Positions 53,066 through 63,004 of a stretch of DNA of 64,000 bases are shown piece after piece. The position numbers and the translations under genes were made by a program. The notes under the pieces are model-generated. The model made no database searches and had not been told where the DNA came from. It saw only the letters and a list, made by a program, of their open reading frames with translations. The stretch is from Heptranchias perlo (Eukaryota). Numbering within the stretch: the first letter of the stretch is position 1; every line of letters begins with the position of its first letter. The stretch is from contig NC_090363.1 in assembly GCF_035084215.1 (NCBI RefSeq), positions 4,960,001-5,024,000 of the forward strand, in the 5' to 3' direction.

Positions 53066-53105
53066 TCTCTTTTTCTGAAGGACTTTGGTGGCTCTGAAAA
53101 GAGCC
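53066..53105 (-). terminator. Histone 3' stem-loop and HDE of the Arg-rich H1-like gene
   Basis: Minus strand AAAA-GGCTCTTTTCAGAGCC-ACCAA (53090-53105), then AAAAAGAGA. Confidence 0.93.
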
Positions 53106-53133
53106 TTTTTTTTTGTTCCCACAATATTTTTGC

Positions 53134-53829
53134 TCAGATTGTTTCCGCTCGGATTCCACCCTCGCGGTTATCCGCCTTGGCCGTTTCATCACTTGGGTAT
53201 TGCTGGGCTTCTTGCTTGCGGAGTTGACCGTCCGCTGGCGGCAGCTCCTTGGCCGCTCTCCTGGGCCGCCCGACGCCCCTCCTCACCGCCTTCCGGACAC
53301 CACCACCACCGCCACCCTTGATCCTGACCCTTCTCTGGCCAGGACCGCCGCCGGCTCTCCCGTTCTTCCTCTGAATCCTCGGCTTGCTCTTCCTGGCGGG
53401 ACTCCTTTTCCTCCTGCTCCTCTTGGCGGCCGCCGCCTTCCTCTGGTAGCGGCCCCGGGAGGCGGCCCGTCTCCTGCCGGCCGCCAGGCGGCTCTTGGTC
53501 TTCACGTACCGCCGCCGGTTGACTTTGAAGGAGCCGTTGGCCCCGGTGCCCGCCGTTTGCAGCAGCGAGCCGCTGGTCACCAGGCTCCTCACCGTCTGGT
53601 TCACCCGCGAGTTGTTCTTGGACACGTCGAAGCCGGCGGCCGACAGCACCTTCTTGACAGCGACCAGCGACAGGCCGCGGCGCTCCTTGGAAGACGCCAC
53701 CGCCTCCATGATCTGACCGGCCAGGGTGGCGGAGGCGCGCCCGCCCGCCTGCCGCGCCCGGGGCGGGCTCCTCCTCTTCCTCGCCTTCTTGCCTCGGGAG
53801 GGGTCTCCGGCCGGATCGCCCCAGCCCAT
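53134..53829 (-). CDS. Arginine-rich linker histone H1-related (protamine-like) protein, 231 aa
   Basis: H1 winged-helix core IMEAVASSKERRGLSLVAVKKVL..GFDVSKNNSRVN..VRSLV..GSL.Q..GTGANGSFK. Tails are Arg-rich; hand count about 41 R versus 21 K. Confidence 0.88.
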   Translation of the reverse strand: MGWGDPAGDPSRGKKARKRRSPPRARQAGGRASATLAGQIMEAVASSKERRGLSLVAVKKVLSAAGFDVSKNNSRVNQTVRSLVTSGSLLQTAGTGANGSFKVNRRRYVKTKSRLAAGRRRAASRGRYQRKAAAAKRSRRKRSPARKSKPRIQRKNGRAGGGPGQRRVRIKGGGGGGVRKAVRRGVGRPRRAAKELPPADGQLRKQEAQQYPSDETAKADNREGGIRAETI

Positions 53830-54042
53830 TTGGTTGTGACGGCGCGACGTTCAGCACCTTTTCCCTCCGGCTCGTCCGCGCTCGACGCCGCGGTGACCGA
53901 TTCTCCGAAGGGGGCGGCGGCGGCGGCGCCATTTAAAATCTCAAGGCGGACGTTTCAGAGTCAACTCCTCCCCCGGGGACCCGGCGCGTGGCCGAGCGGC
54001 GCGCGGCCCCAGGGGTTTATTATTTGCCTTTCTCTGTCTGTC

Positions 54043-54312
54043 AAAAGCATCCAATTTGGTTGCAAGATCTTCAAATCTCCGAAACCTTCAACCCTCCCAG
54101 GAGGGTGCATCGGTGACGCGCACTGGCCCTACGCGCGCTGTGATTTTGTTTTTTTCCCCGAGGCGGTCCCGTGTTTTAAAATATGACCCTTGGGTGCAAT
54201 AAGACAGAGCCTGCACTGAAAGTTTGCACCGTGCGTGTCATCGATGCACCCGCCTGGGAGGGTTGGGAGGTTTTGGAGATTTGAAGATCTTGCAATCAAA
54301 TTGGATGCTTTT
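54043..54312. repeat. Inverted repeat, about 80-bp arms and about 107-bp spacer (MITE-like)
   Basis: AAAAGCATCCAATTTGGTTGCAAGATCTTCAAATCTCC... (54043-54123) is the reverse complement of 54231-54312, with a few mismatches. Confidence 0.88.
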
Positions 54313-55199
54313 CATACGCATGCATATAGTGACACCACGAGTCCTGGACAGAATGGGTAACTCCCCCGTCAATCACGCCTAGAGACCACACTGCTGCAAG
54401 TGGCAACTCATTGGCTCCCGCAGTGGTGTCAATCCTCACTTCGTTATTTATTTCTTCCTCCAAACTATTCCCAGGGCGAAACGCTTTGAGTGAGATTGGC
54501 ACTTTTATTCGCAACGGATAAGGAATGATCAACGTTTCACCCACAAATCATTTCATTATTAATGCAAAAGATTTTTTTATATAGCTTAATGACAAGGGCA
54601 CGGTAACACAAGACTGAAGATTAAAGCGATCTGCTGATGAAACCAACAGTATAAGACAAAGGAAGACCTTGAGGCGGGAGAAATTTCACACCTTATTCAA
54701 TTTTAGACGTATTAAAGATTTTCAATTTGTACTAGAGTAAAAACACGTTCAAGGCAGGTTTTGGTCATTAAAACAGTCTCCAATTGCAAATTTCTGGATA
54801 TATATGACATTAAAGCAAAAAACTTTTTTATTTGCATGCGTAAGTGACTTCAATATTGAAGGGGCTTATTGCAGTATTTTCTATCTATAATGCACATGGT
54901 ATAAATTAATTTTCTGTACGATGCTGAGGACAGAACCAGCGATATGCGGCGGCGAGTCGCGATATTTGGCACCTCCGTTCCTTTGGCGGCTTTTTTTTGG
55001 TTAACGACGACGTTACAGATTTTTTTTCTTGATTAACATATTGCACGAAAAACGGAAGTCTTCTGAAGATTAGAGGAAAATATTTGTTAATTCATTCACG
55101 TTTTCTATATTAGCAGGGTTGATTTTGTGGCGCAGTACTCTTGTATCCTCGTAACATTTTTAAAATTTACACTTGTCGATCGTTAAGATTCATCATTTT

Positions 55200-56100
55200 G
55201 AAAACATGTTTGACCGTTCAGTCTATGGGCGCAGAATTTGCTGCAACCGAGAACACCATGCAGATCAGTCAATCTTTTGGACGTTGTCTGCAGCAGATAC
55301 ATTTAGTTCACCCCTTGTACTCTGCCTATTCCCCAAGATCACTCATGCATCGTTGAAACTTTTCTGAGTTCCTGGAGGATAACGAAATTGCAATGTAATT
55401 GACATATTGTGAGGAAGCCCAACTCTTTGTTCAGATTTTGGAATGTCACTAATGTGAATTTGGAACAGAAGTGGGCTGAAGTCCCGAGGAACTCTCGCCA
55501 TTGGGCGAAACCTGGTGGAAATTGTTGAGTTCATTCTGACACCAATCTTTGCCAGGAAATTTGCTATTCTTTGGATCAGCTTACTGGGAGATGGCGTATC
55601 ACAGTCCTTTTTGGCAATTCTTGTTGAAAGCCTTTCTCACCTCCAGCAACATTGCCAGTGTGCACTCTTTCCTACTAAAAAACTACGGGGACGTGCCCTG
55701 ACAGTCACAGCAAGTTGTTACTGGCGCTTCCTCCTCTCCTGTATTGAAGAAGTTAATGCTCTCGAGGTGGTGGAATATGATGATTCTCTCCAGCATGTAT
55801 TTGGTGATAATATTCACTCCCGGAGCTTTCTCTCAATGTAGAGATCCAGAGGTAGATTTTTCTGGCCGGTTGCTAAGGACGACCCATGGTTTGTTACCAT
55901 TTTGACATCCTTTTTCTTATCAAATGGTTTCAAATTTGCAACAGTCTGGTTTGATAAGGTCTGTGGATTTCGGTGCCGGCAGGAGCAAATTCAGTCCAAT
56001 TGTGTAACCATTCTGTTACATGGCTGTGCAGAAAAATCTTTAGTGTCAGCCTTCGCAGGATGAAGCTGAAAAAATACGGAGAATGAGCCTTAACACTGCC
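55200..56100 (-). mobile_element. Heavily decayed non-CR1 LINE reverse transcriptase remnant
   Basis: Minus-strand pieces AMLLEVRKAFNK (DxxKAFD-like) and ARVPRDFSPLLFQIHISDIPK (GVPQG..LSPLLF.IY..D.P-like), with many stops. Confidence 0.5.
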
Positions 56101-60400: not shown

Positions 60401-60747
60401 TCACCGCAGCCTTTTTTCAATTAAACTTAATTAAAACTACGACATATTTGGATAATTTGCACGGCGGACATTAAGATGTGTTGTTGATACAGGTTCCCGA
60501 AAAGCTAGAACTAGGAAGAAAGCGTTCTAGCCTCCGATAGCTGGAAATCAGATTGGCCAGTGACACGGAAAATGGCAAGCGGCTTCACTCCAAACTGTAA
60601 CTAACAAACTGGATCACTTTTTTCAACATTTTAAAAATAAACATACTTCATACGTCTTAATTTCCCTTTTATTAAATCTTTTTTTAACACGTATGGCTGC
60701 TACATTAACGTCTTGTGACTTGTTTTGGCCCCTTTGTTTGAGTCAGT

Positions 60748-60763
60748 GGCTCTAGGAAGAGCC
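60748..60763 (-). terminator. Histone stem-loop with non-consensus loop (UCCU)
   Basis: Minus strand AAC-GGCTCT TCCT AGAGCC-ACTGA; minus-strand AATAAA at 60668-60673. Confidence 0.85.
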
Positions 60764-60787: not shown

Positions 60788-61417
60788 CTACTTCGCGCTG
60801 GACGATGGGGTCTTTGCCGATTTTGTTTCAGTTGGGCACCTGGATACCCTCCTCATTCTTGCAGCTTTCCACTTGGCTGCCATTCTGAACACGGTCGGGG
60901 TTCTCCGACCCACGCCCGTTTTCTTCTGCGCTTTCGCTTTCTTTCTGCCCGTCGACGGTCTCCTCGGCATTTTAGGGAGTCTCTTGACCACCACTCGTCG
61001 CCTGGTGGCTTCTTTTCCCGACGCCGTCACCCCCGCTGTGATCTCCAGGTCTTTGCTGAGCTTGACCGAACCGGAGGCGCCGGTGCCCGCCGTGTGTACC
61101 AGCGAGCCTCTGCTTAACAAGCTCTTGATCGCCCGGTTGACCCGCGAGTTGTTCTTCTCCAGGTTGTAGCCGCTGGCCTTCAGCGCCTTCTTCATGGCGG
61201 CCACCGACAAACCGCGGCGCTGCTTGGTGGCCGCCACAGCCTTCATGATCTGCTCGGCCACCGTGCAGCCGAACTTCTTGTGCCGGTAAGGCCTCCTCTT
61301 CTTCTTCACAGCAACCGCAATGTCCACCGCCTCGTCTGGAGGCGGAAGCGGCGGCGGTGGTAGCGCTGGTGCCGCCGGAGCGGGAAGGTCCATCCCGACC
61401 GGCTCAATATCCGCCAT
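60788..61417 (-). CDS. Linker histone H1 variant, 209 aa, Pro-rich/acidic N-tail
   Basis: H1 globular domain [69 protein letters not shown]; ATG at 61417. Confidence 0.9.
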
Positions 61418-63004
61418 CAATCCAAACGACGTCTCCCCTCCTCCTCCGCTCCCGTCGGCAGCGACAGCTGCAATGTGGAGGCGGCGCCGGCAAAGTGATA
61501 CTTAAAGCCGCGACGCGGACGCGGTAGACTCAACCCGCCGCCCAGCCGCACGCGGGCGGCCCGGGGCTCCGCCCACTTTGTGCTTTCGCTCCGCTGAAAG
61601 AGGCTTTGGTTCGCGGAAAATCGAGCGCCGGGGAAGCCGCGCATCGCTCACTCCTATCCCACGCAATCCAATTCGTCGCACGGGCAATGCTTTGCATTTG
61701 AAAAACGCGGCGGGGTTATTTTTAACACTCCATAATTGCACCGCCTCCCCCTTAAAAAACCGCCCTGGGTCTGCTTTTTTGCTCTTTCCTGGTTGGAATA
61801 CCGCAACGACCTGATACTTGGGCGGGCATTAAGCCTCGAGGTTGCAGGAGAAGGGTCGTTGTTCATATTCCAGAGGAAGCCCTTGTTTTAACGTGTTAAG
61901 GGACTTGAAAAGATCTTGTTAAGTCTGATCTCAGTAACACAGATAGATTGCGCGGTCAAGGTTGATTTTAATCAGAGGGGTTTGCCACAAGGGGATCAAT
62001 TTTGCGGTTCTCAATACAAGTTCTTCGCATAAACCAGGTTTATAATCAAATTTTACAAGTGGGTGTCCAACAAATTCCACCCTGTCTCAAAAACATAAAT
62101 ATGTTAACATTAGGAGCTAAAGCATTTAAAGGGCAGCTGGATAAGCACATAAGGGAGAAAGGAATAGTGGGATATGCTGATAAGGTAAGATGAAGTAGGG
62201 TGTGAGGAGGCTCGTGTGGAGCATAAGCACTAGCATGGACCAGTTGGGTCGAATGGCCTGTTTCTGTGCTGTGGATTCTATATGTAGCTAGTCATCAGCC
62301 TCGGTGCTTCATCTTCATTTGCTACTTTACGCCTCAATAACTCCTCCACGTCGATAACCTAGACGGTTCAATGATCTTTTTAAGGTAGCAAATTAAAGTG
62401 TTAACCACAAGAATCATTGGGGTTAAAATTCAACTTCGGCGAGGGGGGCACAGAACAGGCGGTAGCGGATTGGCCCCCCGTTATACACCCCACACAAACC
62501 CCGATTCTCCTTTCCAATGGCCCTATGTTGTCTGCAAGAAGCTCAGCTTCTTCTCTTGTGTTAAACAACCCATTTCCTCCTCACCAACTCTTAAATCTTT
62601 ACAAAGCCCTTGTCTGGAATACTGCTCCCATGCTGGGGGTGGGGTGGGGAAGGGGGATCTGATGCCTCTCGTGCTCTTAGACAGGATTCAAGATACTTAT
62701 CGCTGATATATGAACCATTTTCACCTCTAGTCTCCAAACTCAGTCTCTTGGTTGCAACCTTTCTTGTCTCTATACTTTATTGCACTATAAGTCAATGCTT
62801 CTCTCAACTTACTTTTTGATTCTCCCAAGCTGCACATATATCAATCTGCATGGCTCCTCCCCCTTACATCATCAAGATTCAGCGAGCTATCTTCTACTCC
62901 AACCCATTTCCTAGGATATCAAAACTACGAAACTCCTTAATCTTAATCATTTAAAGTGTTTTATTCCTCATGTGAGCTGCAGTGCATTTAATCCTAAGCT
63001 CTTT

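What the first reader, a model, noticed from the sequence alone, without database searches (positions are those of the whole stretch)
53066..53940. Arginine-rich H1-derived protein with a protamine-like middle and an acidic C-terminal extension, retaining a perfect stem-loop and HDE
Seen: an H1 winged-helix followed by NRRRYVKTKSRLAAGRRRAASRGRYQRK..KRSRRKRSPARK..RRVR..VRRGVGRPRR (hand count about 41 R versus 21 K). It then has a ~37-aa tail with many acidic residues (ELPPADGQ...DETAKADNREGGIRAETI) and a Trp near the N-terminus. Established: somatic H1 tails are K/A/P-rich with almost no Arg; PL-I proteins are Arg-enriched H1 derivatives, some proteolytically processed. Inference: a PL-I-like precursor whose C-terminal part could be released as a transition protein or protamine. 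It is worth aligning to the dogfish spermatid intermediate proteins S1/S2, which I recall as basic N-terminally and acid-containing C-terminally.
Basis: partly seen in the sequence, partly recalled or inferred. Interest (0 to 1): 0.75.

Follow-up and report, generated by a model that had tools for sequence, protein, structure and literature searches.

The report
Shark-specific arginine-rich linker histone variant
This is a real, intact shark gene for an unusual linker histone (arginine in place of lysine, an acidic tail, several lost DNA-gripping residues) from an old family of cartilaginous-fish H1 variants, and it more likely loosens chromatin, perhaps in germ cells, than serves as a protamine precursor.

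Summary
Observation confirmed: an intronless 231-aa ORF (53829-53134, minus), 41 Arg/21 Lys, H1 winged helix, 37-aa tail of net -3, perfect stem-loop and HDE. It is not an indel artefact: a 229-aa twin is recorded on a contig of the same length, and orthologues in galeomorph sharks keep the layout. It belongs to one of at least four divergent H1 subfamilies of sharks, rays and chimaera, set apart from the bony-vertebrate H1s sampled (99/92). The PL-I/S1-S2 reading is weakly supported. The globular domain is H1.1-H1.4-like, not H5-like. Net charge is lower than somatic H1, Arg runs are at most 4, and Trp3 is not conserved. The tail search found no short relative. New: the wing lysine matching H5 K85 is non-basic in 41 of 41 variant rows, S/TPxK motifs are nearly gone, and two variant promoters share an H4-box-like element. 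Best reading: an intact, weak-binding linker histone working like H1t/HILS1 but of separate origin, probably germ-line. Tissue expression and cleavage are untested.

The parts
53946..53964 (-). Promoter element shared with the neighbouring variant H1 gene; resembles the H4 box / H4 site II (consensus recalled, from no call)
   Evidence: same 19-nt pattern at 53946-53964 and 61515-61533 only; the pattern was derived from these two sites, so the shuffle control is circular
53932..53937 (-). TATA-like TTTAAA; no sense-strand CCAAT within 400 nt upstream of the ATG
53134..53829 (-). Intronless CDS, 231-aa variant H1 (subfamily A); GC3 0.83
   Evidence: protein present in the collection as P0052
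53737..53829 (-). N-terminal tail, residues 1-31, 7 R + 3 K; Trp3 not conserved
53518..53736 (-). Winged-helix globular domain, residues 32-104; E42, N77, S86 and A93 replace H1.4 K46, K81, K90 and K97 (A93 at 53553-53551 matches H5/H1.0 K85)
53248..53517 (-). Arg/Lys/Gly-rich middle, residues 105-194, net +38; ends in a degenerate AT-hook-like GRPRR (53271-53257)
   Evidence: no Pfam AT-hook hit in 16 of 16 proteins
53137..53247 (-). Acidic C-terminal tail, residues 195-231, net -3; charge, not sequence, conserved in orthologues
53090..53105 (-). Canonical histone 3' stem-loop
53066..53074 (-). Histone downstream element (purine-rich)
   Evidence: judged by eye against a recalled consensus
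60788..61417 (-). Neighbouring variant H1 (subfamily C), 209 aa, imperfect stem-loop at 60763 plus AATAAA at 60673
51093..51500 (-). Neighbouring divergent H2B, 135 aa, with stem-loop; a 98%-identical twin is recorded on a contig of the same length

Best explanation
An intact linker-histone variant specific to cartilaginous fish (subfamily A), derived from replication-dependent H1, that binds chromatin as a whole protein but more loosely than somatic H1. Shown: the gene, its 3' processing signals, its conservation across both shark superorders, the Lys-to-Arg swap without added charge, the loss of four basic globular-domain residues, near-absence of S/TPxK motifs and an acidic tail. Inferred: the weakened globular domain grips the nucleosome dyad poorly, and the acidic tail folds back on and damps the basic middle. 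The protein then keeps chromatin open and exchangeable, as H1t and HILS1 do. Inferred with less support: this happens mainly in the male germ line (spermatocyte to early spermatid), alongside the linked variant H2B, under a CCAAT-less promoter with an H4-box-like element.
For: Orthologues in Heterodontus, Carcharodon, Cetorhinus, Scyliorhinus, Hemiscyllium, Chiloscyllium and Stegostoma; 9 of 9 subfamily-A rows form one side of a branch, 99/95. Last 35 residues net <=0 in 11 of 13 A rows against +12 to +16 in 10 of 10 canonical H1. Whole-protein net charge +31 to +49 (8 rows) against +52 to +59 (10 rows); S/TPxK 0-1 against 2-5. K97-equivalent basic in 0 of 41 chondrichthyan variant rows against 141 of 156 others; A rows also lack K46, K81 and K90 (0 of 15 each). 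H5 K85 is placed at the dyad in docking models (PMC1963316, one passage). H1t and HILS1, poor in S/TPXK, are poor condensers (PMC6069787, passages). The H4 box is described as a mark of differentiation-dependent H1 genes (PMC6027317, passage). Language-model neighbours bear germ-line H1 names for two orthologues.
Against: No tissue-resolved expression was obtained, so the germ-line step is inference. Arg binds DNA more tightly than Lys (general knowledge), so binding could be strong despite the lower net charge. The Heptranchias copy is the most basic of the group (+49). The atlas names are automatic and had no control. The H4-box match rests on a recalled consensus. The trees use 72 columns and hold no named canonical shark H1 and no H5, HILS1 or bivalve PL-I row. 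One paper states that sharks use PLs (PMC13148410, citing Bloch 1976; passage).
Confidence: 0.5

Rival explanations
1. PL-I-like precursor: made in spermatids and cleaved so that the basic middle acts as a transition protein or protamine, with the acidic tail as a removable propeptide.
For: A winged helix plus an Arg/Lys-rich disordered stretch is the PL layout, and some PLs are cleaved (PMC13148410, passages). Sharp charge boundary at residue 194/195. Atlas top hit 'protamine-like protein', 0.93. The wing hairpin is described as dispensable in Mullus PL-I (PMC4584325, passage), which fits wing-lysine loss.
Against: Domain is H1.1-H1.4-like, not H5-like. Stem-loop gene, whereas Mullus PL-I is listed polyA+ (PMC4584325, table passage). 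R+K 18-27% in 13 A rows, not above canonical 27-30%. Arg runs <=4 and no Cys in 8 of 8 full-length rows. 0 of 52 short candidates matched the C-terminal part (low-complexity query, limited sensitivity). AU test rejects grouping with the flounder SP-repeat/teleost group, p 0.014.
Confidence: 0.12
2. Somatic, differentiation-linked variant, for example an H5-like Arg-rich histone of nucleated erythrocytes, or a low-level variant in many tissues.
For: H5 is Arg-enriched and somatic (PMC4584325, passage). An H4-box-like element and no CCAAT fit differentiation-dependent H1 in general. CpG-rich, unmethylated-looking locus (CpG o/e 1.0).
Against: Lower net charge and an acidic tail are the opposite of H5's condensing design. 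Tails diverge quickly (48-55% identity between sharks), as germ-line chromatin proteins often do (general knowledge).
Confidence: 0.2
3. Oocyte or early-embryo linker histone, functionally like H1.8/B4, which by my recall also carries acidic residues and condenses weakly.
For: Acidic tail and reduced charge.
Against: Fold search ranks H1.8 far lower (21% identity, E 0.02) than H1.1 (55%, E 1e-8). H1.8 genes have introns and polyA (recalled); this gene has neither.
Confidence: 0.1
4. A dispensable H1 copy whose Arg/Gly richness comes from GC-biased mutation or gene conversion rather than from a new function.
For: GC3 0.83; 18 of 41 Arg codons are AGG, one step from Lys AAG. Near-identical twins within species point to conversion or recent duplication. 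One Hemiscyllium copy reads through into the stem-loop and the Mobula row is truncated.
Against: Intact ORF and same layout across Squalomorphii and Galeomorphii. The globular domain is well conserved. The three base differences in the laid contigs are all synonymous and the indel is in frame.
Confidence: 0.08

Closest known systems
Mammalian H1t (H1.6)
   Same: Intronless stem-loop gene from the replication-dependent lineage (recalled), Arg-enriched tail, few S/TPXK motifs, poor condenser (PMC6069787).
   Different: Not orthologous: AU test rejects A + H1t-like rows as a clade, p 0.00014 (the three rows were labelled H1t because they group with Tupaia H1t). H1t-like rows have a basic tail end (+12).
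HILS1 (H1.9) and H1T2 (H1.7)
   Same: Divergent, S/TPXK-free spermatid linker histones; nearest atlas clusters by features.
   Different: HILS1's domain is much more diverged from somatic H1 and its tail is short (PMC6069787). No sequence of either was aligned here.
PL-I (Mullus surmuletus, bivalves, tunicates)
   Same: Winged helix plus Arg/Lys-rich tail.
   Different: PL-I is H5-derived, polyA+ and more basic; this protein is H1.1-H1.4-derived, has a stem-loop, is less basic than somatic H1 and has an acidic end.
Dogfish spermatid proteins S1/S2 and scylliorhinines Z1-Z4 (recalled; sequences not seen)
   Same: Basic-then-acidic polarity, as recalled for S1/S2.
   Different: No short relative found; the catshark orthologue's tail lacks Tyr and Cys.
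HMGA proteins / plant GH1-HMGA (recalled)
   Same: A GRPR motif followed by an acidic tail; full PRGRPRK in Carcharodon and Cetorhinus rows.
   Different: One motif only, GRP[RK] in 6 of 13 A rows, about 7-12% expected per row by shuffling; no Pfam AT-hook hit.
RefSeq 'histone H1-like' XP_067829793.1 (Heptranchias perlo)
   Same: 99% identical twin, two glycines shorter.
   Different: Automatic name only; no function or subfamily assigned.

Membership tests
Linker histone H1 | Winged-helix globular domain between disordered tails | tested here: met
   (rmsd 1.0 A to H1.1, predicted model)
Replication-dependent-type histone gene | Intronless, stem-loop plus HDE, no polyA signal | tested here: met
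   (no AATAAA/ATTAAA in 700 nt after the stop)
Canonical somatic H1 | Lys-rich C-terminal domain with few acidic residues and S/TPXK motifs | tested here: not met
   definition from PMC13510831 and PMC6069787 passages
Canonical somatic H1 | CCAAT box in the proximal promoter (recalled) | tested here: not met
PL-I | Globular domain of the H5/replication-independent lineage | tested here: not met
   H1.1-H1.4 E about 1e-20; H1.0/H5 5e-7 to 2e-4; no PL-I sequence itself was available
PL-I | Basic content raised above H1 | tested here: not met
   R+K 26.8% against 27.4-30.4% in 10 canonical rows; net +49 against +52 to +59
PL-I | 30-50-residue Arg/Lys-rich stretch in the C-terminal half | tested here: inconclusive
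   residues 105-194 hold 38 R+K, but at most 11 Arg per 30 residues and Gly/Ala-diluted
PL-I | Trp inside the globular domain (recalled for bivalve PL-I) | tested here: not met
   Trp is residue 3 and occurs there in 2 of 8 full-length rows, both Heptranchias copies
PL-I | Sperm-specific, displaces histones, may be cleaved | not testable with these tools
   no tissue-labelled RNA or proteome reachable
Dogfish S1/S2 and Z protamines | Sequence contained in the orthologue | tested here: inconclusive
   sequences not obtainable; indirect search negative
H1t (H1.6) | Orthology | tested here: not met
   group named after an earlier tree was seen, 72 columns
AT-hook proteins | Full RGRP core | tested here: not met
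   window has VGRPRR; full core in 3 of 13 A rows

The most novel reading that the evidence does not exclude
Cartilaginous fish evolved their own germ-line chromatin kit: at least four clustered stem-loop H1 subfamilies that all dropped the dyad-binding wing lysine, plus a variant H2B. It arose independently of H1t and of H5-derived PL-I. In subfamily A the acidic tail is a built-in chaperone whose removal turns a loose linker histone into an Arg-rich condensing protein. That would be a separate vertebrate route from replication-dependent H1 towards sperm proteins.
Probability: 0.15. Interest if true: 0.8.

Novelty: new variant of a known kind. Interest (0 to 1): 0.52.

Why it matters
The origin of vertebrate sperm proteins from H1 is an old open question, and sharks are the outgroup to bony vertebrates. 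A lineage-wide set of variant H1 genes with a shared change at a key DNA contact, known to me only under automatic 'H1-like' names, gives concrete candidates. They can be tested directly in the catshark, whose testis is zoned by stage (PMC11607694, passage) and for which a 31-tissue expression table exists (PMC11979771). Even if somatic, an H1 with a built-in acidic tail and a natural K85 loss is a useful probe of how linker histones tune compaction.

Tried and rejected
No whole genome is held, so the second copy and its flanks were not read. Expression: no RNA holder listed; the five rows are guessed RNA with no library or tissue on record. In the four runs laid (one sample, one study) the unique stretch 54672-56007 had no cover, and depths differed between runs for the neighbour gene. 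The tool says neither shows transcription, level or tissue, so I draw nothing from them. All four contigs carry the 229-aa twin's deletion, so they do not show that the window's own copy is read. Catshark 31-tissue TPM tables (PMC11979771) could not be opened; they bear directly on the main claim. Supplements of PMC11083954 (one file, no 'histone' in it) and PMC12318234 gave nothing. PMC10751288 and PMC10707392 gave nothing usable, so MHC linkage is not claimed. PMC384709 is not held. Frameshift origin of the Arg tail rejected: neither other frame gives a Lys/Ala/Pro tail. The overlapping 247-aa frame from ATG 53932 rejected: that ATG overlaps the TATA-like box and has no Pfam hit. Multi-domain hits P0060-P0064 set aside: named proteins of bony fish, frog and tree shrew with repeated H1 domains. 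AT-hook kept only as a weak lead. The 179-row careful tree did not finish (quick tree used); the 48 rows were my selection from about 200 proteins. Earlier scan findings: none.

Full report
1. Observation. The minus strand carries one intronless ORF, 53829-53134, of 231 aa with 41 Arg and 21 Lys. Residues 40-104 match Pfam PF00538 at E 1.1e-16. An AlphaFold model has the three helices and wing of H1 with disordered flanks, and its best solved match is H1.1 at rmsd 1.0 A. Residues 105-194 have net charge +38 and no acidic residue; residues 195-231 have net -3. A canonical stem-loop starts 28 nt after the stop (Rfam RF00032, 38.3 bits), followed by a purine-rich downstream element, and there is no polyA signal in the next 700 nt.

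2. It is not an assembly artefact. The window's protein and a 229-aa twin (XP_067829793.1, Heptranchias perlo) are both recorded on a contig of 21,079,719 bases, as are two copies of the neighbouring H2B variant and two of another variant H1; I read these as paralogues. Contigs of 4 of 4 runs laid (one sample, RNA only guessed) cover most of the gene, including the acidic tail, in the same frame. All four show the twin's in-frame 6-nt deletion; two base differences occur in 4 of 4 and a third in 3 of 4, all synonymous. Three of the four run on about 335 letters past 53068 with sequence unlike the window. They therefore confirm the frame but fit the twin rather than this copy. Neither alternative frame encodes a Lys-rich tail.

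3. It is an old subfamily inside a larger radiation. A first search gave 11 hits among 4736 candidates, 7 from sharks. A profile search gave 51 among 8000 scored, and an unfiltered search 893, of which 150 were listed. Orthologues occur in Heterodontus, Carcharodon, Cetorhinus, two Scyliorhinus species, Hemiscyllium, Chiloscyllium and Stegostoma, with a truncated Mobula row. That spans Squalomorphii and Galeomorphii. In a careful tree of 48 globular domains that I chose, 9 of 9 subfamily-A rows group at 99/95. All 27 variant rows, whose named members are all shark, ray or chimaera proteins (three rows are unnamed), plus one long-branch alligator row, are split from canonical, H1t-like and teleost rows at 99/92. 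Three further subfamilies appear: B (85/49), C (79/40, including the neighbour at 60788-61417) and D (99/97). Several share contigs in Carcharodon, Rhinoraja, Hemitrygon and Callorhinchus. Limits: 72 columns, no named canonical shark H1, no H5 or PL-I row.

4. What is conserved. The C-terminal domain has R/(R+K) 0.47-0.69 in 13 A rows against 0.00-0.07 in 10 canonical H1s, but total R+K is 18-27% against 27-30%. The last 35 residues are neutral or acidic in 11 of 13 A rows; the two misses are a Hemiscyllium copy that reads into its stem-loop and the truncated Mobula row. They are +12 to +16 in 10 of 10 canonical rows, and neutral or acidic in 4 of 8 B rows. Net charge is +31 to +49 in 8 full-length A rows against +52 to +59; S/TPxK motifs number 0-1 against 2-5; the longest Arg run is 2-4; none has Cys; Trp3 occurs only in the two Heptranchias copies. 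A GRP[RK] motif precedes the tail in 6 of 13 A rows and occurs in 5 of 8 D rows, but shuffling gives it in about 7-12% of those A rows and Pfam finds no AT-hook in 16 of 16 proteins.

5. Globular-domain changes. By ungapped offsets to solved structures, residue 93 corresponds to H1.4 K97 and H1.0/H5 K85. It is basic in 0 of 41 variant rows and in 141 of 156 other rows; one of those 15 misses is itself a Carcharodon B copy. Subfamily A also lacks K46, K81 and K90 (0 of 15 each) while keeping R54, K63, K64, K106 and K109 equivalents in 15 of 15. K85 is modelled at the nucleosome dyad (PMC1963316, one passage). The domain is much closer to H1.1-H1.4 (E about 1e-20) than to H1x, H1.0 or H5 (1e-7 to 2e-4).

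6. Promoter. There is a TATA-like TTTAAA at 53937 and no sense-strand CCAAT in 400 nt. Just upstream of that box, this gene and the subfamily-C neighbour share a 19-nt pattern found nowhere else in the window (the pattern came from these two sites). It resembles the H4 box as I recall it. A review calls the H4 box a unique feature of differentiation-dependent H1 genes (PMC6027317, passage).

7. How it most likely works. Taken together these features describe a linker histone built to bind less tightly, not a super-condenser: fewer dyad contacts, no S/TPxK repeats, lower net charge and a tail that can mask the basic middle. The mammalian parallels are H1t and HILS1, both poor condensers thought to keep germ-cell chromatin open (PMC6069787, passages). 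Language-model neighbours for the window protein and the Heterodontus orthologue carry germ-line H1 and 'protamine-like' names at 0.90-0.93; these are automatic names without a control. A variant H2B lies 1.6 kb downstream. I put an intact, weak-binding, male-germ-line-biased H1 at 0.5, a somatic differentiation variant at 0.2, a cleaved PL-like precursor at 0.12, an oocyte H1 at 0.1 and compositional drift at 0.08. Weak binding, tail auto-inhibition and tissue are all inferred.

8. Comparison with known families. It is an H1. It is not a canonical somatic H1. It is not an H1t orthologue (AU p 0.00014) and does not group with the flounder SP-repeat/teleost set (p 0.014); both groups were named after an earlier tree was seen. 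It fails the PL-I tests of H5 lineage and raised basicity as those are described in PMC13148410, PMC13251019 and PMC4584325 (passages). Against this, PMC13148410 says sharks use PLs, and PMC4584325 says the wing hairpin is dispensable in Mullus PL-I. S1/S2 and the scylliorhinines could not be fetched. A search of residues 105-231 against 30-126-aa proteins scored 0 of 52 candidates at E <= 10, and the catshark orthologue's tail lacks Tyr and Cys; the comparison of composition rests on my recall.

9. Novelty. Ten full-text searches listed no paper whose title or abstract start describes these subfamilies; large result sets were only partly listed (25 of 148, 20 of 93, 30 of 131) and most subscription papers, including the 1980s-90s dogfish biochemistry, are outside the library. 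Databases name the members only 'histone H1-like', with subtype-style variants of that name, or uncharacterised. Papers seen: passages of PMC11083954, PMC4584325, PMC13251019, PMC8857922, PMC13148410, PMC11607694, PMC8812575, PMC11979771, PMC10751288, PMC10707392, PMC6027317, PMC13510831, PMC6069787 and PMC1963316; supplement searches for PMC11083954 and PMC12318234; none read whole. Verdict: a new variant of a known kind, interest 0.52. The catshark expression tables that I could not open would settle the main uncertainty.

Noticed in passing
window 50520-50535 (-): A perfect histone stem-loop with a good AAAGAG downstream element and no gene of its own, 526 nt past the H2B stem-loop, whose own downstream element looks poor. 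It may be a second 3' end for H2B or the remnant of a lost gene; tblastn with H3 and H2A pieces found nothing in the window.
   Followed up: partly
window 60788-61417 (-): Second variant H1 (subfamily C, related to Leucoraja and Callorhinchus proteins) with a Pro-rich acidic N-terminus, an altered stem-loop loop and an AATAAA 115 nt after the stop, so possibly dual 3' processing.
   Followed up: partly
window 51093-51500 (-): Divergent H2B with a Ser/Thr-rich N-terminal tail; its twin is named 'H2B type 1-A-like' by RefSeq (automatic name).
   Followed up: partly
window 54043-54312: About 270-nt inverted repeat (arms 90% complementary), MITE-like, just upstream of the promoter.
   Followed up: no
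window 3776-26444: Four intact HSP70 ORFs about 25-50 kb from the histone genes; HSP70 next to histone genes recalls the mammalian MHC neighbourhood, not verified.
   Followed up: partly
window 45076-45675 (+): CALHM-family ORF (Pfam PF14798, E 1.5e-17), probably a first exon.
   Followed up: no
proteins P0002/P0054, P0012/P0053, P0003/P0004, P0013/P0016, P0069/P0203: Variant H1 genes come in near-identical pairs within several shark species, suggesting an inverted or tandem duplication kept alike by gene conversion.
   Followed up: no
protein P0182 (Alligator): An Arg-rich 157-aa H1 of alligators also lacks the wing lysine and falls with the chondrichthyan variants on a long branch: shared origin or attraction, unresolved.
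   Followed up: no
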